From a virus (lineage: Duplodnaviria > Heunggongvirae > Uroviricota > Caudoviricetes): a stretch of 9,862 nt of DNA. The notes beneath the pieces are model-generated. The model saw only the letters and a program-made list of their open reading frames with translations, did not search any database and had not been told where the DNA came from. Each line of letters opens with the position of its first letter. The stretch's first letter is position 1. A program made the position numbers and the translations under genes. Location: positions 1 to 9,862 of the IMG/VR virus record IMGVR_UViG_2778261502_000003; one strand, 5' to 3'. Below, one piece after another: positions 1-8,391 of the stretch.

Positions 1-897
1 TTAATCCAGACAGTTAGATTTTGCATTTTTGAACGTATACCTGTTTTGATGTAATGCTATGATCTCTTTAATATCATTTGCTGAGTAGCCATCAAGTTCA
101 ATTTCTGATATCTCACCTTCGATCAGCACGATTTTGGCTGTCTGATTACTGGATACCGTAGTAGATTTTGACTTGAGTGTCTTACGTCCTTTAATCAACC
201 ATGACCCGCCACCATCTTTGACCCAGTCAACAAGAGTCTCAGCCCAATGAGAACCTTTGAGTTTCAAATTGCCATCTTTGTTTTCAAAAATAGTGGTCAC
301 AGTATTTGCATTGGTATCTTTTTCAAGCTTCCGTAAATCATTGGTTAACGCTTGCTTACTGCTTCCGAAGATATTCGGAGTAATCAGCGTAAAGCTGACT
401 TTGTCGATAAATTGAAGCCTATGGTATTCTGACCAAAAATCTTCCATTTCAAGACAAGGCTCTATAAATATTCTAAGTCCTAACTGAGCCAAATAGTCGT
501 TATTGGCTAGATCTTCAAACGCTTTAGCAACTTGTTGCGCATCCTTGAAAACAGCGGTTTTCCTCTCAACCAGTAACACCTGCTCTACTTTGTCCCAAAT
601 CCATACGATAGGTGGATAGTTGTCTACATCGTACTCTCGAAAGTCTTTATCATGTCCTTTAATCTTTTGCAGCTTTGATATGACTCCAGCCATAACACCA
701 TCAGTAGGTTTTATGCTCAATTTCAGGGTGTAACTAGTTTTCTTATGAACGGAAGGTGTTGATGACGTCATGTGTAAATTTTTTGCAGCGATAACCATAG
801 CATTTTCAAAATGAGAGATATCTTTCTGAACAGTTCCTTTCGAAAAGAGGTCTGGATCGCGCGGTCTCATTAACACACGTAAGGCATACAACTGCAT
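1..897 (-). CDS. Hypothetical protein, 298 aa; integrase-adjacent prophage cargo gene of unknown family
   Basis: Complete minus-strand ORF (ATG at 895-897, TAA at 1-3). AGGAG Shine-Dalgarno about 7 nt upstream of the ATG. Visibly AT-rich compared with the phage structural genes. No HExxH motif (so not the Lit protease that e14 carries here) and no motif I can assign to a known family. Confidence 0.6.
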   Translation of the reverse strand: MQLYALRVLMRPRDPDLFSKGTVQKDISHFENAMVIAAKNLHMTSSTPSVHKKTSYTLKLSIKPTDGVMAGVISKLQKIKGHDKDFREYDVDNYPPIVWIWDKVEQVLLVERKTAVFKDAQQVAKAFEDLANNDYLAQLGLRIFIEPCLEMEDFWSEYHRLQFIDKVSFTLITPNIFGSSKQALTNDLRKLEKDTNANTVTTIFENKDGNLKLKGSHWAETLVDWVKDGGGSWLIKGRKTLKSKSTTVSSNQTAKIVLIEGEISEIELDGYSANDIKEIIALHQNRYTFKNAKSNCLD

Positions 898-973
898 AAG
901 AAAACTCCTGTAAACTATTTGGTTTCATTATTCCATAAAACCAAGCACTTTCAAGAGCTTAATTTTCTTTCAA

Positions 974-993
974 TTCTGTATGCATATACAGTA
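974..993. promoter_or_regulatory. Candidate LexA (SOS) box overlapping the putative promoter of the 298-aa gene
   Basis: Minus strand reads TACTGTATATGCATACAGAA: CTGT-N8-ACAG with an AT-rich spacer, 14/16 identical to the LexA core consensus CTGTATATATATACAG as I recall it. It lies in the gap between the integrase stop (1013) and the 298-aa gene start (897). A -35-like TTTACA (minus strand, plus coordinates 1005-1010) and a -10-like TATATG inside the box would place the operator over the -10. Confidence 0.5.
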
Positions 994-1012
994 TCATTCA
1001 ATTTTGTAAAAT

Positions 1013-1690
1013 TCAAACCTTGATTTTTGCCCATTCCTTACCACGATCATCATGGTATTTAGCTGTCTGGTTAGGCGATTTATGTCCCAGAAGTTTTTGG
1101 GTGTCGACGCCCTGAGCTTCGTAAAGTCGCTCAGATAAAGATCTTTGTTCATGGAATGTGGCGGGCGAACCTTCACCCCAGTCAATGCCTGCTAAATCCC
1201 TCGCTTTACTGAAATTCATCGTCAATGTATTGGCTTTTACTTGCGCGCCACGTTCAGCCTGTGAAGTAGTACGAAAAAAATGTACAAGGTATGGGCTGAC
1301 TGCATAGTCACGGCAGCGGGCTACTACATCGCGTAAACTCCAGTTAATTGCATTGAGGCGAAGGGAAAGCGGGATGGCGATTTTGCTCCCGGTTTTTTCT
1401 TGGATGACGTGAAGATGATCATCCCAAATATCGCTAAATTTCATACGTGAGATATCACCTAACCGTTGGCCGGTAACCAGTGCTAACAGCATGGCATTCC
1501 CCATATAACGATGGCGGGCATCTGCGATATCAAAGATTTTTTGCCATTCTTCAAGACTTAACCGTTGTCGGGTAATTTTTCTTCTGGGTTGTTTGGTTGC
1601 CAGTGCTGGATTATAGCCCGGAGGGACTTCCCCATAGTGTTGTGCCTCCTTGAATACATCAATTAGAACGGAGCGGACTACTTGCGCCAC
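1013..1690 (-). pseudogene. Lambda-family tyrosine integrase, C-terminal (catalytic-domain) fragment; N-terminal arm-binding/core-binding region missing
   Basis: Translation aligns block-for-block with the catalytic domain of lambda Int as I remember it: LALVTGQRLGDI (Arg box), KTGSKIAIPL, ATFHEQRSLSERLY (His/Arg box), LLGHKSPNQTAKYHDDRGKEW (Tyr nucleophile region). Only about 225 codons are present against roughly 350-400 for intact family members. The open frame begins at the junction with the terminase fragment. Confidence 0.85.
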
Positions 1691-1731
1691 CGGAGTGGTT
1701 CGCTGAAGAAGATCTCCCTCTCGCCACGATC

Positions 1732-2052
1732 ATGTGGCAACTGACAACCAAAGAACTCTGCGGTCAGGGCCTGCTGTGCGTGACTGACCTCGCGGTGCTT
1801 GAGCGGTGGTGCGTGGCCTATGAGTTCTGGCGACGTGCCGTGAAAAATATTGCCAGACAGGGCAACACCATCACCGGTGCAATGGGCGGCATGGTCAAAA
1901 ATCCGGAGCTGACCGCCAAAAAAGAACAGGAGTCCGAGATGAGCAGTACGGGGGCAATGCTCGGACTCGACCCCAGCAGCCGCCAGCGTCTGATTGGCCT
2001 GGCGGGGCAGAAGAAAGCCACTAACCCGTTTCTGAAAATTATCGAATCATGA
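1732..2052 (+). pseudogene. Small terminase subunit (P27/HK97-like), C-terminal fragment
   Basis: About 106 codons resembling the C-terminal half of P27-family small terminases. The stop overlaps the large terminase start in ATGA (2049-2052), the usual terS-terL coupling. The N-terminal half is absent; the frame is interrupted just upstream, next to the integrase fragment. Confidence 0.55.
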
Positions 2053-3782
2053 GCCGGAAATCTTACCCCAACGTAAATGCTGCAAATCAGTATGCCCGTG
2101 ATGTCGTGCGCGGAAAGATTGTGGCCTGCCAGTTTGTGATTCAGGCCTGCCAGCGCCATCTTGATGACCTGATGGCGGAAAAAAGTAAGTCGTTTCGTTA
2201 CCGCTTCGACAAGGACCTGGCTGAACGGGCCGCCAAATTTATTCAGCTGTTGCCGCACACCAAGGGTGAGTGGGCATTCAAGAGGATGCCTATCACGCTG
2301 GAGCCGTGGCAGCTCTTTGTGATCTGCTGCGCGTTTGGCTGGGTCAATAAAGGCTCCCGGCTGCGCCGCTTCCGTGAGGTGTATACCGAAATCCCCCGTA
2401 AGAACGGCAAATCGGCAATTTCTGCCGGTGTCGCCCTGTATTGTTTTGCCTGTGATAACGAGTTCGGCGCGGAAGTGTATTCCGGTGCCACGACGGAGAA
2501 ACAGGCATGGGAAGTCTTTCGTCCGGCAAGACTGATGTGTAAACGCACACCCATGCTGACGGAAGCGTTCGGGATTGAGGTTAACGCCTCAAACATGAAC
2601 CGTCCGGAGGATGGTGCGCGTTTTGAACCGCTGATCGGTAACCCCGGTGATGGTTCATCACCCCACTGTGCGGTGGTGGATGAATATCACGAGCACGCCA
2701 CCGATGCGCTTTACACCACGATGCTTACCGGGATGGGGGCGCGACGTCAGCCACTGATGTGGGCTATCACTACCGCCGGGTACAACATTGAGGGGCCGTG
2801 CTACGACAAACGGCGGGAAGTCATCGAGATGCTCAACGGCTCGGTGCCTAACGATGAACTGTTCGGGATTATCTATACCGTTGATGAAGGTGACGACTGG
2901 ACCGACCCGCAGGTGCTGGAAAAAGCTAACCCGAATATTGGCGTGTCGGTTTATCGCGAATTTTTGTTAAGTCAGCAGCAGCGTGCGAAAAATAACGCCC
3001 GTCTGGCAAACGTCTTTAAAACAAAACACCTCAATATCTGGGTGTCGGCGCGTTCGGCGTATTTCAACCTGGTGAGCTGGCAGAGCTGCGAGGATAAATC
3101 ACTGACCCTTGAGCAGTTCGAGGGGCAGCCGTGCATTCTGGCCTTTGACCTGGCGCGTAAGCTGGATATGAACAGCATGGCGCGACTTTATACCCGCGAG
3201 ATTGACGGTAAAACGCATTACTACAGTGTGGCCCCGCGTTTCTGGGTACCGTATGACACGGTGTACAGCGTCGAGAAAAATGAAGATCGACGGACAGCCG
3301 AACGCTTTCAGAAATGGGTGGAAATGGGCGTTCTGACCGTTACCGATGGTGCGGAGGTGGATTATCGCTACATCCTCGAGGAGGCCAAAGCGGCGAACAA
3401 AATCAGCCCGGTCAGTGAGTCACCCATTGACCCCTTCGGGGCGACCGGGTTGTCACATGACCTTGCTGATGAAGACCTGAACCCCATCACTATCATTCAG
3501 AACTACACCAACATGTCCGACCCGATGAAAGAGCTGGAAGCGGCAATTGAATCGGGGCGCTTTCATCATGATGGCAATCCCATCATGACCTGGTGTATCG
3601 GCAACGTGGTCGGCAAAACCATTCCGGGTAACGATGATGTGGTGAAGCCCGTCAAAGAGCAGGCGGAAAACAAAATCGATGGTGCAGTTGCGCTGATTAT
3701 GGCGGTTGGCAGAGCCATGCTGTACGAGAAAGAAGACACGCTGTCTGACCACATTGAGTCCTATGGGATCCGCTCGCTTTAA
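2049..3782 (+). CDS. Phage terminase large subunit (Terminase_1 / HK97-type)
   Basis: 577-aa ORF with a Walker A-like motif (PRKNGKS) and Walker B-like motif (AVVDEYHE) in the N-terminal ATPase region. Length and overall composition are typical of HK97-type large terminases. It is translationally coupled to the upstream terS fragment. High GC, typical of the phage backbone. Confidence 0.9.
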
Positions 3783-3793
3783 CTGAGGTAATT

Positions 3794-3976
3794 ATGATCA
3801 TGCTGATTCTCGCGCCTCTGGTGGGCGTGCTGGGGGCGCTTTTGCTGGCGTATGGTGCCTGGCTGATTTATCCCCCGGCGGGGTTTGTTGTTGCCGGGGC
3901 GTTGTGCCTGTTCTGGTCGTGGCTGGTGGCGCGATATCTCGACCGTACACAGTCGTCAGTCGGCGGAGGTAAATAG
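3794..3976 (+). CDS. Small hydrophobic protein (two predicted transmembrane helices), phage head-module ORF of unknown function
   Basis: 60-aa [56 protein letters not shown] Shine-Dalgarno upstream of the ATG. Its TAG stop overlaps the GTG start of the next gene (TAGTG). Confidence 0.45.
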
Positions 3977-4941
3977 TGTTCTTTTCGGGATTATTTCAAC
4001 GAAAAAGTGACGCACCGGTGACCACGCCAGCAGAGCTGGCGGACGCTATCGGGCTGTCCTACGACACCTATACCGGAAAGCAGATCAGCAGTCAGCGGGC
4101 CATGCGACTGACGGCGGTTTTTTCCTGCGTCAGGGTGCTGGCAGAGTCGGTCGGGATGTTGCCCTGCAACCTGTATCACCTGAACGGCAACCTGAAACAG
4201 AGAGCCACCGGCGAACGTCTGCATAAGCTGATTTCCACGCATCCCAATGGCTATATGACGCCGCAGGAGTTTTGGGAGCTGGTGGTCACCTGTCTGTGCC
4301 TGCGGGGAAACTTTTACGCCTACAAAGTGAAAGCATTTGGCGAAGTGGCTGAACTGCTGCCCGTCGATCCCGGCTGTGTGGTAACCGAATTTGCCGAACA
4401 GGAAGAAATTGCCTTTACCACCGGCGATGGTACCAAGAAGCCGAAAGGGTTCCTGGCGTATGAATCCACTGATGAAACCGATAAGGTCCGGGCGTTCGGC
4501 AAACTTCAGCATATTGTATCCGGCGAAGCGACGGCGGTGACCGCAGACGCCATTATCAAACTGATTTACACGCTGCGTAAGGCACACCGCACTGGCGCGA
4601 AGTTCATGATGAACAACAACAGCCTGTTTGCCATCCGTCTGCTTAAAGACAGCGAGGGTAACTATCTGTGGCGTCCGGGGCTGGAACTGGGGCAGCCGTC
4701 CTCTCTGGCGGGTTACGGTATCGCTGAAAACGAACAGATGCCGGATATCGCCGCTGATGCGAAAGCCATTGCATTTGGTAACTTCAAACGGGGTTACACC
4801 ATCGTTGACCGTATCGGCACCCGCATTCTGCGTGACCCGTACACCAATAAACCGTTTGTCGGTTTTTATACCACCAAGCGCACCGGCGGGATGCTGGTCG
4901 ATTCGCAGGCCATCAAACTGCTGAAGATTGCAGCGGCGTAA
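3976..4941 (+). CDS. Chimeric ORF: HK97-family portal N-terminus fused in frame to HK97-fold major capsid protein C-terminus (deletion derivative, probably non-functional)
   Basis: GTG start with a GGAGG Shine-Dalgarno 7 nt upstream. Residues about 1-140 look like a portal N-terminus (SSQRAMRLTAVFSCVRVLAESVGMLPCNLY ... GNFYAYKV). Residues about 180-321 look like a major capsid C-terminus (YLWRPGLELGQPSSLAGYGIAENEQMPDIA ... AIAFGNFKRGYTIVDRIGTRILRDPYTNKPFVGFYTTKRTGG ... AIKLLK). At 321 aa it is too short to be either protein, and no prohead protease is present. Confidence 0.65.
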   Translation: MFFSGLFQRKSDAPVTTPAELADAIGLSYDTYTGKQISSQRAMRLTAVFSCVRVLAESVGMLPCNLYHLNGNLKQRATGERLHKLISTHPNGYMTPQEFWELVVTCLCLRGNFYAYKVKAFGEVAELLPVDPGCVVTEFAEQEEIAFTTGDGTKKPKGFLAYESTDETDKVRAFGKLQHIVSGEATAVTADAIIKLIYTLRKAHRTGAKFMMNNNSLFAIRLLKDSEGNYLWRPGLELGQPSSLAGYGIAENEQMPDIAADAKAIAFGNFKRGYTIVDRIGTRILRDPYTNKPFVGFYTTKRTGGMLVDSQAIKLLKIAAA

Positions 4942-4988: not shown

Positions 4989-5204
4989 TCATGATCCTGA
5001 AACAAGATCTGAAATGGTCACCGGACGGTAAACCTTTGCCAGTTCCGGGTATTCTTCAGCAGAAAAAGCCGCACCATTGCATTTTAGCCAGCCTGTTGGC
5101 GGAGTGGCGGAAGGCCACGGGACAGGCACACCAACGGGTAATGCCGAACCTTCTCCCAAACCAACGTTTATGAAAATGCAGAAATAACGAGCAAATGGCA
5201 TCAT
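4989..5204 (-). pseudogene. Tail-fibre variable-region fragment (Stf / Mu S-type), stub of the invertible segment
   Basis: The minus-strand ORF contains LPVGVPVPWPSATPPTGWLKCNGAAFSAEEYPELAKVY. This is the PWPS...GW..C.G..F....YP.L motif that opens the variable C-terminal part of Mu S / P1 S / e14 Stf tail fibres. The reading frame stops about 45 residues later and no constant N-terminal part is present. Confidence 0.45.
5151..5176. other. Candidate pix/gix-like recombination site (crossover site of the Pin invertible segment)
   Basis: TTCTCCCAAACC-AA-CGTTTATGAAAA is two imperfect inverted 12-bp half-sites around a 2-bp core. The left half matches 10/12 to the gix half-site TTATCCAAAACC recalled from memory. 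It sits where expected, between the tail-fibre variable-region start and pin. Confidence 0.3.
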
Positions 5205-5230: not shown

Positions 5231-5422
5231 ATGCTTATTGGCTATGTACGCGTATCAATAAATGACCAGAACACAGATCTACAACGTAATGCGTTGAACT
5301 GTGCAGGATGCGAGCTGATTTTTGAAGACAAGATAAGCGGTACAAAGTCCGAGAGCCTAGGGCTGACAGTGCTGTTCTTGATGCAAATTAAAGGATTTAA
5401 TAGTGAGTTGCGGCCTTACTAA
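5231..5422 (+). pseudogene. pin: Serine DNA invertase (Pin/Gin/Hin family), N-terminal fragment
   Basis: MLIGYVRVSINDQNTDLQRNALNCAGCELIFEDKISGTKSE matches the N-terminal catalytic block of Gin/Hin/Pin invertases, including the catalytic serine in YVRVS. Similarity is lost after about 45 codons and the frame runs into unrelated AT-rich sequence. The ORF track's 5195 start is an in-frame upstream ATG; ATG 5231 is the likelier native start. Confidence 0.75.
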
Positions 5423-5455: not shown

Positions 5456-7345
5456 TTAATCGTATTTTGGCCATACTTTCAATGCAATTTCCCCCAACTT
5501 TTTACCTCGCTCCAGTATTTCACTCTCATCCCATTTATCCTTAAGTATAAGTGGTATGTTCAGTCGTAGATTGGTGTGGACGATGAGAGCATCACGTTTT
5601 TTCAGAAATACAGCATTCTGAACGGAACGGTTTACGCTAAGGTTAAGCAAAGTTAGATTTCCCAACGTAGCTATCGTTTGTTGCCGTTTCCTTACCAGTA
5701 GCTGTTCAGGGGTAAGATCGGTTCCAGACAGAACAATTTGGTTCATTACCGTAGCATCTGAATTTGTCACCATATGACCATTTTCGAGAGGCCAACAGGA
5801 ATACCAACTTTGAGGCATAAGATGATCGATATCGAGATTAGAAAGATTTGGAACATCAGGCTTTTCTGTCTTCACTTGGCGACAAAGTTCTCTTTCAAGT
5901 TCCGTTAACATTGAGCGCATTTTCGGTGCGTCGAGCCTGCCAGGATAAAGTGGAGCATTGATGCAAGCGTTGAGAAATTCTGAGTCCCCAGGCCAACGTG
6001 AGGCTTCGCCATTTAAGCTATTGAGGATATTACGTAACTCAATACTGGAAATTTCCGTTTTAGACAAGTGTCGCAATACATTCATAAATACATTGTTGTA
6101 ATTCTTTGGCGTCAGGCCACATACGGATCTTCGTACTACGTAGGAGACAAGATCATTATACATGGCTGCTTTCTCATCATCGGCGATGTTAGCTATCGAA
6201 ATGAACAAAGCAAGCGGATAGAGTGTCGTCACATCATAGGCTGCGATGCGATGTCCAAAGTGTGAGATGGGGGTTGTGCCAAAACCACCAACCAATTCTT
6301 TATATTGTGATGCATATTGTTTGAGGCGCTTTACTTGCAGATCTGCTCGTTGTGAAGGCAAGTCCTTACTTACATAATCACGATACTCATTGTAAAGGCG
6401 AGACAGATCAATTTCACGCTGCCTTTCTGATTGCAATGTCGCATGTACAAGCCACTCCATGCGTGGTTTATTAATACGTCCACGGCGTTGCTTTTCCGAC
6501 CAGTATTTATCTTCAAAGATCTTCCACTCATTTTCATATAATTCAATAGTATTAATATTTTCATGCTCAGCGCACATAAAGATATAGTTGCGAATAAGAT
6601 CCGTTGCATGAAGTTCCGCTCCTCGCCCATTTAATGTTTCAAAAATTATTTGGGCATCATCTTCAGCTTCGAGAAATATGCTTACCAGTTTCAGATCCGT
6701 CAAGACAGCCTCAATTAGTGCTACAGCATTTTCTTGTGGTGAGCGGTTTTCTATTTTAATCCATTTTATAAAGGCTTCAGTAAAAAACCATAATGCCTCT
6801 AGTGACGGCGGGTGGTTGAAATGTTTACGTAACGTACCATGTTGCGTGAAGCTATCAGAAAATACATTACGGAGATCGTCAATATTATCAACATTAAGAC
6901 TTTGAATAAAATGAGTTTGATCTCGAAAAGTTGGCCACAGTTTGAAGCATTCTACCTTTTTATTTCTCATCGTTGCTTCGTTTGTATTTTTCAAGCAAGT
7001 CAATACTAACCCTTCCAGTTCAGAAAGGCCTGTAGCACGCAATGATAATCGAATGGATGCCAGAATATATTGAAGAGTGGTTAAACGTTGCTGGCCGTCA
7101 ATAATATGTATGGTATCTACACCTAACAAGCTGTTTTTGAGTTGAGGTTCCAGCACCACCGCGCCGAGGAAATGAGGGGTTGGTTTTGTTCCCGAAAGTC
7201 GGCTCTGTGCTTTTTCGAAGATATCCTCCAGCAAAGCTGACCATTGGTTTCGTTGCGTCCATACGTAGGCACGTTGATAGAATGGAACACGATATTGTCG
7301 TTGATTTTGGAAAATTTGCTGGATGGTTAGCGTTTCGGATTTCAT
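5456..7345 (-). CDS. GmrSD-like Type IV (modification-dependent) restriction endonuclease; DUF262 (ParB-like NTPase) N-terminal domain plus DUF1524 (His-Me finger nuclease) C-terminal domain
   Basis: 629-aa ORF. N-terminus has the DUF262 signature: FYQRAYVWT, then IHIIDGQQRLTTL (DGQQR at residues 83-87, plus-strand 7085-7099). C-terminus has the DUF1524 signature: DIDHLMPQSW (His codon at 5822-5824), then LGNLTLLNLSVNRSVQNAVFLKK. AT-rich and convergent with the pin stub. The architecture matches GmrSD, BrxU and SspE. Confidence 0.8.
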   Translation of the reverse strand: MKSETLTIQQIFQNQRQYRVPFYQRAYVWTQRNQWSALLEDIFEKAQSRLSGTKPTPHFLGAVVLEPQLKNSLLGVDTIHIIDGQQRLTTLQYILASIRLSLRATGLSELEGLVLTCLKNTNEATMRNKKVECFKLWPTFRDQTHFIQSLNVDNIDDLRNVFSDSFTQHGTLRKHFNHPPSLEALWFFTEAFIKWIKIENRSPQENAVALIEAVLTDLKLVSIFLEAEDDAQIIFETLNGRGAELHATDLIRNYIFMCAEHENINTIELYENEWKIFEDKYWSEKQRRGRINKPRMEWLVHATLQSERQREIDLSRLYNEYRDYVSKDLPSQRADLQVKRLKQYASQYKELVGGFGTTPISHFGHRIAAYDVTTLYPLALFISIANIADDEKAAMYNDLVSYVVRRSVCGLTPKNYNNVFMNVLRHLSKTEISSIELRNILNSLNGEASRWPGDSEFLNACINAPLYPGRLDAPKMRSMLTELERELCRQVKTEKPDVPNLSNLDIDHLMPQSWYSCWPLENGHMVTNSDATVMNQIVLSGTDLTPEQLLVRKRQQTIATLGNLTLLNLSVNRSVQNAVFLKKRDALIVHTNLRLNIPLILKDKWDESEILERGKKLGEIALKVWPKYD

Positions 7346-8162: not shown

Positions 8163-8335
8163 CTAAATCTAATGTTACGCCATATGGGCTGGACTGAAGC
8201 CGCAGACCTGATTGTTAAAGGTATGGAAGGCGCAATCAATGCGAAGACCGTAACCTATGACTTCGAGCGTTTGATGGAAGGCGCTAAACTGCTGAAATGT
8301 TCAGAATTTGGTGATGCGATCATCAAGAACATGTA
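8163..8335 (+). pseudogene. icdC: icd 3'-terminal fragment (icdC-type remnant created by prophage integration into isocitrate dehydrogenase gene); marks attR
   Basis: Translation [54 protein letters not shown]-stop matches the C-terminal ~55 residues of E. coli isocitrate dehydrogenase as I remember them, with two substitutions. The sequence upstream of about 8163 is unrelated AT-rich DNA, so only the 3' end of the gene is present. Confidence 0.85.
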
Positions 8336-8359
8336 ATCACTACATGTGTTTAATATTGC

Positions 8360-8391
8360 AACGGGCGTATAACACGCCCGTTGTTTTATTT
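8360..8391 (+). terminator. Rho-independent terminator of icd
   Basis: AACGGGCGT-ATAAC-ACGCCCGTT is a perfect 9-bp stem, followed by TGTTTTATTT, 25 bp after the icd stop codon. Confidence 0.7.

What the first reader, a model, noticed from the sequence alone, without database searches (positions are those of the whole stretch)
1690..1735. Deletion scar joining the integrase catalytic domain directly to the small terminase C-terminus
The minus-strand integrase frame and the plus-strand terS frame both start abruptly within about 40 bp of each other. In an intact lambdoid genome these genes are separated by the whole early, replication and lysis region, so a single large deletion (or illegitimate recombination) removed xis, immunity, replication and lysis while sparing the terminase. 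The element can therefore neither excise with a wild-type Int nor lyse the cell; it is locked in.
Basis: partly seen in the sequence, partly recalled or inferred. Interest (0 to 1): 0.4.

Follow-up and report, generated by a model that had tools for sequence, protein, structure and literature searches.

The report
Deletion scar in decayed e14-type prophage
A roughly 14-16 kb internal deletion in an E. coli prophage sitting in the icd gene has joined the back half of its integrase gene head-to-head to a beheaded small-terminase gene, which is ordinary prophage decay that leaves the remnant stuck in the chromosome.

Summary
The window is E. coli contig NLUV01000008.1: a remnant of an e14/SfV-type prophage integrated in icd. 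Compared with intact relatives (strains E4 and 20KM0223N), integrase homology runs 100% identical up to base 1689. terS homology starts at 1686. The two parents overlap in a 4-bp microhomology, GCCA (7 of 8 bases over TTGCGCCA). About 14.2-15.9 kb is missing: int codons 1-150, xis, immunity, replication, Q, lysis, the HNH packaging nuclease and terS codons 1-43. No trace of the lost parts lies nearby, and no relative has int next to terS. terS is itself truncated. There are two further scars, at 4383 and 5030. 'Locked in' is an inference. The scar is rare: it occurs in three mutually identical assemblies and in none of 5,426 complete E. coli genomes. The kind of event is well known, and K-12 e14 is the textbook parallel, so interest is low. 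The neighbouring scar at 4383 is more notable. It lies on a nucleotide-precise, one-directional deletion hot spot in the portal gene, shared by K-12 e14 (beeE/jayE) and at least eight other independent alleles. Its mechanism is unexplained.

The parts
1..897 (-). 298-aa cargo ORF of unknown function, in the position that lit occupies in K-12 e14
   Evidence: Complete ORF. 100% identical in intact relatives. No Pfam or PADLOC match.
1013..1690 (-). 5'-truncated integrase: IntE residues 151-375. This is the last part of the core-binding domain plus the whole catalytic domain. The GTG 'start' codon was created by the junction (ATG in the parent).
   Evidence: tblastn against E4 IntE matches residues 151-375 at 99.6%. 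Pfam Phage_integrase. Aligns to lambda Int residues 140-355, with R, K, H-x-x-R, H and Y conserved in the printed alignment. The Arm-DNA-bind_1 domain is present only in the intact protein.
1686..1689 (.). Deletion junction J1: 4-bp microhomology GCCA shared by both parents, within an imperfect 7/8 match TTGcGCCA at 1682-1689
   Evidence: Three-way alignment of the window with both parental sites. Base 1685 differs from all terS relatives. Chance estimate from simulation.
1687..2052 (+). 5'-truncated small terminase (P27 family): codons 44-164 remain in frame. The first available start codon is ATG at 1732 (Met59), giving a 106-aa ORF.
   Evidence: tblastn against E4 TerS matches residues 44-164 at 100%. 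Pfam Terminase_4 and TIGR01558 are both matched above their cut-offs.
2049..3782 (+). Intact large terminase (577 aa); its start overlaps the terS stop (ATGA)
   Evidence: ORF. TerL_ATPase and TerL_nuclease domains. No nucleotide difference from E4 between 1686 and 3939.
3794..3976 (+). ymfR-like 60-aa membrane protein gene
   Evidence: ORF; annotated ymfR in E4 and K-12.
3976..4941 (+). In-frame fusion ORF: portal residues 1-136 joined to the C-terminal 185 residues of the major capsid protein. Junction J2 lies at 4383/4384; 2,124 bp are lost.
   Evidence: Pfam Phage_portal plus Phage_capsid in one ORF. Breakpoint mapping.
5029..5030 (.). Deletion junction J3 (2-bp overlap TA). The start of the small ORF after the capsid gene is joined to the interior of a tail-fibre gene; 13,831 bp are lost.
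4989..5204 (-). Tail-fibre (stfE-like) fragment with a Collar domain
   Evidence: Pfam Collar. Matches the E4 and K-12 tail-fibre genes.
5231..5422 (+). Pin-type invertase fragment (N-terminal ~47 residues); already truncated in the intact relatives
   Evidence: Pfam Resolvase. Annotated as a partial recombinase in E4 and 20KM0223N.
5456..7345 (-). GmrSD-type type IV restriction enzyme (629 aa), cargo at the position of mcrA in K-12 e14
   Evidence: Pfam GmrSD_N and GmrSD_C. PADLOC mREase_IV, 1514 bits, full length. K-12 map.
8172..8336 (+). Displaced 3' end of icd (icdC-like), marking the right attachment region of the element
   Evidence: 95% identical to the 3' end of icd in E4. Annotated as a partial isocitrate dehydrogenase.

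Best explanation
The span is the scar of a large internal deletion in an e14/SfV-family temperate prophage integrated in icd. An illegitimate, homology-independent recombination event joined a point inside int (between codons 150 and 151) to a point inside terS (between codons 43 and 44), using a 4-bp microhomology, GCCA. This step is shown. The likely route is replication slippage or microhomology-mediated end joining; this step is inferred. The event removed about 14-16 kb: the Int arm-binding domain and most of the core-binding domain, xis, the repressor/cro switch, replication genes, the Q antiterminator, the lysis cassette, the HNH packaging nuclease, the HNH-terS intergenic region (probably including cos), and the terS 5' end. 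The two surviving gene stumps point away from each other and have lost their promoters, ribosome-binding sites and native start codons. The remnant therefore most likely cannot excise, replicate, lyse the cell or package DNA on its own (inferred). With two further deletions in the head and tail genes it is now a roughly 10-kb cryptic island. It still carries intact cargo (a GmrSD type IV restriction enzyme and unknown ORFs) and an intact but probably silent terL.
For: Colinear alignment to two intact prophages gives the same breakpoints. The junction is seamless, with no inserted bases and no IS. The microhomology exceeds chance (P about 0.018 perfect, 0.003 imperfect). The content of the deleted interval comes from RefSeq annotation. 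Int' equals lambda Int residues 140-355 with the catalytic residues kept, and the arm-binding domain is absent. TerS' equals residues 44-164. No lost parts are found elsewhere. No promoter-like site lies near the junction. The identical scar occurs in three assemblies. Both flanks are 100% identical to intact relatives (1-1689 and 1686-3939), so the event is recent.
Against: The true parent is unknown. E4 carries an IS1 inside the interval and the two proxies differ by 1.7 kb, so the deletion size is approximate. One event versus several nested ones cannot be decided. The three carrier assemblies are identical over all shared sequence and may be one clone, or even one isolate sequenced more than once. 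Loss of expression and of excision was not measured. Both att regions survive, so rescue in trans remains possible.
Confidence: 0.9

Rival explanations
1. The interval was lost in several successive smaller deletions, and the present junction is only the last of them.
For: The same element carries two more independent scars, so repeated deletion did occur in this lineage. Prophage remnants with other scars are common in relatives.
Against: No intermediate carrying any of the three junctions, or a subset of them, was found in 5,426 complete genomes, GTDB representatives, JGI metagenomes or the protein-indexed assemblies. The flanks show zero substitutions relative to intact relatives, which leaves little time for a series of events.
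Confidence: 0.2
2. The junction is an assembly artefact, that is, a chimeric contig.
For: The source is a draft assembly, and the carriers are few.
Against: The same sequence was assembled independently in a second NCBI assembly and in a Logan assembly of a public run, 100% identical across all three scars. The overlap is only 4 bp, far below any assembler k-mer. K-12 e14 shows that scars of this kind are real.
Confidence: 0.03
3. int and terS are naturally adjacent because the element is a phage satellite (PICI-like) that carries its own small terminase.
For: Some satellites encode int and a terS homologue on a small island.
Against: Both genes are 5'-truncated. Both are 99.6-100% identical at protein level to genes of a full-length prophage in which they lie 14 kb apart. 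No satellite regulatory, primase or capsid-redirection genes are present. The island also holds a portal::capsid fusion and tail-fibre debris.
Confidence: 0.01
4. The deletion was made by a site-specific or transposition mechanism: IS1 adjacent deletion, or Int or Pin acting on a secondary site.
For: E4 carries an IS1A inside the deleted interval. The element encodes Int and once encoded Pin.
Against: No IS copy or IS end remains at the junction. The breakpoints lie inside the int and terS coding sequence, not at att or pix sites (pix sequences). Neither breakpoint recurs in other genomes.
Confidence: 0.04

Closest known systems
Cryptic prophage e14 of E. coli K-12 (icd-integrated; Mehta, Casjens & Krishnaswamy 2004, BMC Microbiol 4:4, cited from memory and from the reference list of PMC2847215)
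   Same: Same integration site with a displaced icd 3' end. Same family of int (85% nucleotide identity), terL, ymfR, portal, tail-fibre and pin genes. The same style of decay by internal deletions that fuse unrelated genes (ymfN = oweE/aaaE; beeE/jayE). A type IV restriction gene as right-end cargo. The portal breakpoint is identical to the nucleotide.
   Different: K-12 e14 keeps intact intE and xisE and the immunity region, and is described as easily excisable (PMC2847215). Here int is halved and xis, immunity, replication and lysis are gone. The deletions differ (int|terS, portal|capsid, post-capsid ORF|tail fibre). The cargo is GmrSD instead of McrA, and an unknown ORF instead of Lit.
Intact e14/SfV-type prophages at icd (E. 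coli E4, 20KM0223N), and the phages SfI, SfII, SfIV and ST64B that share the head module
   Same: 100% identity over 1-1689 and 99.7% over the late-gene pieces. The portal gene is 97-98% identical to SfII, SfIV, SfI and ST64B.
   Different: Those are about 38-41 kb with a complete gene set. The window retains about a quarter of it.
'Grounded' prophages (Ramisetty & Sudhakari 2019, PMC6379469)
   Same: That paper proposes that loss of the recombinase or of att function fixes a prophage in place, after which it degenerates by deletion. This element has lost half of int and all of xis, and is heavily deleted.
   Different: Which came first, loss of excision or loss of late genes, cannot be read from the sequence. 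Among 503 records with this int-xis module, 498 are near full length, so int truncation is rare in this family.
Isolated catalytic fragment of lambda integrase (C170; PDB 1AE9)
   Same: Int' covers the region aligned to lambda Int residues 140-355 and includes everything in the 1AE9 fragment, with the catalytic residues conserved.
   Different: From established lambda biochemistry (my knowledge), such fragments can cleave DNA but cannot carry out arm-dependent integration or excision. Here there is also no native start codon or promoter, so even that activity is doubtful.

Membership tests
e14-family prophage integrated in icd | Inserted in icd, with a duplicated or displaced icd 3' end at the far side | tested here: met
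   icd-like fragment at 8172-8389, 95% identical to the end of icd. The full icd lies upstream of the window in the source contig.
e14-family prophage integrated in icd | IntE-type tyrosine integrase near the left end, on the minus strand | tested here: met
   Residues 151-375 are 99.6% identical to E4 IntE, and 85% identical at nucleotide level to K-12 intE. The gene is truncated.
e14-family prophage integrated in icd | P27-type terS, terL, ymfR and an HK97-type portal as the head-module genes | tested here: met
Lambda-type tyrosine integrase (functional) | Catalytic R-K-H-R-H-Y set | tested here: met
   Conserved in the printed alignment to lambda Int 1Z19/1AE9.
Lambda-type tyrosine integrase (functional) | N-terminal arm-DNA-binding domain and a complete core-binding domain | tested here: not met
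   Arm-DNA-bind_1 occupies residues 1-73 of intact IntE only. Residues 1-150 are absent from the window and its surroundings.
P27-family small terminase (functional) | Match to TIGR01558 / Pfam Terminase_4 above the cut-off | tested here: met
   75.5 bits against a cut-off of 45.6; 76.8 bits against 24.7.
P27-family small terminase (functional) | Full-length ORF with its native start and basic N-terminal 43 residues | tested here: not met
   Only codons 44-164 remain; the first start codon is Met59.
Phage satellite / PICI | Intact integrase plus its own regulation and replication module and helper-exploitation genes | tested here: not met
   int is truncated, and no such genes appear among the ORFs or Pfam hits.
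Microhomology-mediated illegitimate deletion | Seamless junction, short identity shared by both parents, no mobile-element remnant | tested here: met
   GCCA overlap and no extra bases; exceeds chance.
Microhomology-mediated illegitimate deletion | RecA-independent slippage or end-joining enzymology | not testable with these tools
   Requires genetics in the carrier strain or a model lysogen.

The most novel reading that the evidence does not exclude
The scars in this remnant may not all be random decay. The neighbouring scar at 4383 sits on a nucleotide-precise, one-directional deletion hot spot in the portal gene (after ...GCTGTGTGGTA, portal nt 408). Ten DNA-verified alleles, including K-12 e14 beeE/jayE, and about 26 protein-inferred alleles all keep the terminase side and lose 2-15 kb of downstream late genes, with 0-5 nt of microhomology. 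The most novel reading is that a site-specific strand break at this position repeatedly triggers loss of head and tail genes in SfV/e14-family prophages. One candidate is a nick by the phage's own terminase-linked HNH endonuclease: the site reads TACCGA, and the published AC^CG family motif fits it. On this reading the int|terS scar arose during the same break-repair history.
Probability: 0.3. Interest if true: 0.6.

Novelty: new member of a known kind. Interest (0 to 1): 0.2.

Why it matters
Taken alone, the int|terS scar is one more documented step in prophage decay. It shows at base resolution how a single microhomology event can remove excision, immunity, replication and lysis functions together while leaving defence cargo (GmrSD) in place. 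It is useful mainly for annotation: int, terS and the portal::capsid ORF here should be flagged as pseudogenes. It is also a lineage marker for the carrier clone. The recurrent portal breakpoint found alongside it could matter more. If a defined site drives directional loss of virion genes, it would give a mechanistic handle on why cryptic prophages of this family, including K-12 e14, look the way they do.

Tried and rejected
Lost gene parts: I searched for the missing int 5' half, xis and the terS 5' end in all frames of the window and of 20 kb of the source contig, and found nothing.

The same junction elsewhere: exact-junction scans of GTDB representative genomes and JGI metagenomes gave no hits. 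Junction-spanning queries for all three scars against 5,426 complete E. coli genomes found none that spans any junction.

Recurrence of the J1 breakpoints: I looked at partial hits to the intact int-xis region and the intact HNH-terS region. Neither breakpoint recurs.

Fortuitous expression signals: the promoter/terminator scan around the junction found nothing near it.

The 106-aa TerS ORF as a marker of the deletion: rejected. The same ORF is called in many otherwise intact phages, because frameshifts or a stop in the terS 5' end put the native start out of frame.

Explanations tested for the portal hot spot:
- Pin crossover site: no resemblance.
- cos: phage records start upstream of terS.
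- att site: the attR annotated in phage 118970_sal3 lies at portal nt 20-52, not 408.
- Canonical Chi: the nearest lies 98 nt to the left, the wrong distance.
- Strong hairpin: only a 10-bp imperfect stem, z-score -0.6.
- Reciprocal deletion class: none found.
- The 10-mer TGTGGTACCG being sufficient on its own: its second copy in the tail-terminator gene shows only one or two such alleles, but the search was insensitive.

Literature: searches for beeE/jayE or for a portal deletion hot spot found nothing relevant. The Mehta et al. 2004 e14 paper is not held in the library.

Full report
WHAT THE WINDOW IS. The 9,862-bp window is identical to part of contig NLUV01000008.1 of assembly GCA_002233275.1. 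It lies between icd and iraM/ycgX, the position of cryptic prophage e14 in E. coli K-12. Every complete E. coli genome matches some part of it, but none of 5,426 covers 80% of it. Strains E4 (NZ_CP104516.1) and 20KM0223N (NZ_CP151045.1) carry a full-length prophage of about 40 kb at the same site. In those strains the left 1,689 bp of the window are 100% identical, and the other pieces are 97.5-99.7% identical. The head module is that of Shigella phages SfI, SfII and SfIV and Salmonella phage ST64B.

CHECK OF THE OBSERVATION. A minus-strand ORF (1013-1690) carries the Pfam Phage_integrase domain. A plus-strand frame carries the P27-family small-terminase domain; it is open from 1687 and its first ATG is at 1732. 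Against E4, window 1-1689 aligns to the int side and window 1682-4389 to the terS side. Base 1685 is C in the window and in int, but A in E4 terS and in the other terS relatives examined. The perfect overlap is therefore GCCA (1686-1689), inside a 7-of-8 match TTGcGCCA. The junction has no extra bases and no IS remnant. A simulation with random breakpoint pairs from the same prophage gives P = 0.018 for an overlap of at least 4 bp and P = 0.003 for a 7/8 match.

WHAT WAS LOST AND WHAT REMAINS. With E4 as proxy, 14,237 bp are missing. With 20KM0223N as proxy, about 15.9 kb are missing. The proxies differ because their early regions are mosaic and because E4 has an IS1A inside the interval. The interval holds:
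- int codons 1-150 and xisE;
- accessory genes;
- the S24/XRE repressor and a cro-like gene, and ymfL;
- replication-region genes, a Dam-type methylase, RusA, KilA-N and DUF968 genes, and the Q antiterminator;
- a TIR-TM defence gene (in E4);
- holin, endolysin and spanin genes;
- the HNH endonuclease and terS codons 1-43.

Int' corresponds to IntE residues 151-375 and to lambda Int residues 140-355. It keeps the whole catalytic domain with R, K, H-x-x-R, H and Y. It lacks the Arm-DNA-bind_1 domain (residues 1-73) and most of the core-binding domain. Its GTG 'start' is the parental Met151 ATG, altered by the first base contributed by terS. TerS' keeps codons 44-164. That is nearly all of the region modelled by TIGR01558 (residues 45-158 of the intact protein), but it has no start codon before Met59. 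terL is intact and shows no nucleotide difference from E4. tblastn finds no trace of the lost Int, Xis or TerS parts in the window or in 20 kb of the contig.

MECHANISM. Shown: a seamless head-to-head junction at a 4-bp microhomology, between two sites that lie 14-16 kb apart in intact relatives. Inferred: illegitimate, RecA-independent recombination, either replication slippage or microhomology-mediated end joining. This rests on general knowledge of short-homology-dependent deletion in E. coli, not on a test here. Also inferred: both stumps are silent. They diverge from the junction. Their native promoters are deleted (the int/xis promoters on one side, the Q-dependent late promoter on the other). 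No sigma-70-like site lies near the junction, and I saw no Shine-Dalgarno sequence before the GTG or before the ATG at 1732 when reading the sequence. The element therefore most likely cannot excise, since it lacks Xis and the Int arm-binding domain. It also cannot replicate, lyse the cell or package DNA. The icd-type att regions at both ends survive. Rescue in trans by a related phage is therefore not excluded.

OTHER SCARS. The same alignment reveals two more deletions.
- J2: portal nt 408 is joined in frame to the last 185 codons of the major capsid gene. This loses 2,124 bp and gives the 321-aa ORF at 3976-4941.
- J3 (5029-5030, 2-bp overlap): the start of the small ORF after the capsid gene is joined to the interior of a tail-fibre gene, losing 13,831 bp.
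Together about 30 kb of a roughly 40-kb prophage are gone.

DISTRIBUTION AND AGE. All three scars occur, 100% identical, in GCA_013365775.2 and in a Logan assembly of SRR3957146. None of the three junctions occurs in 5,426 complete E. coli genomes. J1 is also absent from GTDB representatives and JGI metagenomes. The flanks carry no substitutions relative to intact relatives, so the events are recent. Consequently the intactness of terL says nothing about selection. Among 503 records with this int-xis module, 498 are near full length. One other truncated allele has a different breakpoint, and two Logan assemblies carry a Gln148-to-stop allele three codons upstream of the J1 breakpoint. Neither J1 breakpoint recurs in other genomes.

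RIVALS. Natural int-terS adjacency (a satellite) is excluded by the truncations and by near-identity to genes of a full prophage. An assembly artefact is unlikely, given three assemblies and an overlap of only 4 bp. IS- or recombinase-mediated deletion leaves no supporting trace. Stepwise loss cannot be excluded, but no intermediate was found.

COMPARISON WITH WHAT IS KNOWN. K-12 e14 is the closest described element. It has the same site and gene families, and it decays in the same way, by deletions that fuse genes (oweE/aaaE, beeE/jayE). K-12 e14 keeps int, xis and immunity and is excisable (PMC2847215). Here those are the parts that were lost. The case fits the 'grounded prophage' picture (PMC6379469). 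It is a new deletion derivative of a known kind of element.

A RECURRENT PORTAL BREAKPOINT (outside the finding). The left breakpoint of J2 is the same nucleotide as the K-12 e14 beeE/jayE junction. The same breakpoint appears in a portal|tape-measure scar in a related remnant at ssrA in strain CFSAN061772.

Further look-ups raised this to ten DNA-verified alleles: the window, L010, L022, L228, L229, L231, L233, L234, L235 and L236. All keep portal up to ...GCTGTGTGG(TA)(CC(G)). Nine continue into partners that map 2.1-14.7 kb downstream in the E4 prophage (one of them inverted), with 0-5 nt of microhomology. The tenth (L233) continues into the tail genes of a different phage type.

A protein search with portal residues 1-136 returned about 26 distinct truncated or fused proteins that diverge at codons 133-137. 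Most diverge exactly after codon 136. Only about five break elsewhere. In 205 sampled loci, 195 are intact and 10 are of the K-12 type. The reciprocal class, in which the downstream portal is kept, was not found.

The site is not a pix site, not cos and not Chi; a canonical Chi lies 98 nt to the left. It lies in the loop of a weak 10-bp inverted repeat. It reads TACCGA, which fits the AC^CG(R) motif of terminase-associated phage HNH nickases characterised in Gram-positive phages (PMC3592412, PMC4027164). The predicted nick would lie one nucleotide from the observed end.

One model would give a fixed left end, variable downstream partners and short microhomologies: a nick in the bottom strand, then run-off of a rightward replication fork, then re-priming downstream. 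This is a hypothesis only. A second copy of TGTGGTACCG in the tail-terminator gene is the partner in one allele (P0043). It shows no comparable swarm of alleles, although that search had low sensitivity.

VERDICT. The feature is an ordinary, recent, lineage-specific deletion scar in an e14-type prophage. Interest in the finding itself is low. The portal hot spot next to it deserves separate follow-up.

Noticed in passing
window 4379-4389 (junction at 4383/4384); also L010 11139, L022 9061, L228, L229, L231, L233-L236: The portal-gene breakpoint of the second scar is a nucleotide-precise, one-directional deletion hot spot (after ...GCTGTGTGGTA, portal nt 408). Ten DNA-verified alleles, including K-12 e14 beeE/jayE, and about 26 protein-level alleles share it; all lose downstream late genes with 0-5 nt of microhomology. 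No reciprocal class was found. It is not a pix, cos, att or Chi site. It fits the AC^CG motif of terminase-linked HNH nickases, but the mechanism is unexplained.
   Followed up: partly
window 5029-5030: A third deletion scar (13.8 kb, 2-bp overlap) joins the start of the small ORF after the capsid gene to the interior of a tail-fibre gene. It removes the connector, tail, tape-measure and baseplate genes.
   Followed up: yes
window 5456-7345 (-): An intact 629-aa GmrSD-type type IV restriction enzyme (PADLOC mREase_IV, full length) occupies the slot that holds mcrA in K-12 e14. The right end of this prophage family appears to be an exchangeable slot for type IV restriction cargo.
   Followed up: partly
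window 1-897 (-), and the adjacent 154-aa ORF just outside the window (L002 5587-6051): Two conserved cargo ORFs with no Pfam or PADLOC match sit next to int, in the position that lit, ymfD and ymfE occupy in K-12 e14. They are possibly an uncharacterised defence or accessory module.
   Followed up: partly
L002 5068-5509 (between icd and the window); L001 42263-42693: An older, more diverged integrase fragment (65% aa identity to IntE residues 281-373) and a second icd-like fragment (81% identity) lie between icd and the element. This suggests the relic of an earlier tandem integration at the same site. It is shared with the intact-prophage strains.
   Followed up: no
L014-L021, about 170-240 bp upstream of the 106-aa terS ORF: In many assemblies the G-rich 5' end of terS (around GGGCGTTCAGGGCGT) carries small indels, duplications or a stop codon that put the annotated start out of frame. 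Gene callers then report the same 106-aa TerS as in this window. This may be a slippage-prone tract or a sequencing-error hot spot.
   Followed up: partly
L006 9992-9994 and L008 (Logan SRR30690009, SRR18568185): An independent inactivation of the same integrase: Gln148 CAA to TAA, three codons upstream of the deletion breakpoint, in otherwise full-length int-xis modules.
   Followed up: yes
L022 3507-4264 (E. coli CFSAN061772, ssrA locus): A related remnant at ssrA shows an analogous scar: a 5'-truncated integrase lies about 100 bp from, and diverges from, the holin gene. It also has a truncated terL, and it lies next to DarTG and a type II restriction-modification system.
   Followed up: no
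L001 28465-29280 (E4, inside the interval deleted in the window): The intact relative E4 carries a TIR-TM defence gene (PADLOC) between Q and the holin gene. 20KM0223N has different cargo there (an MBL-fold hydrolase and two unknown ORFs). The Q-holin gap is therefore a variable cargo slot.
   Followed up: no
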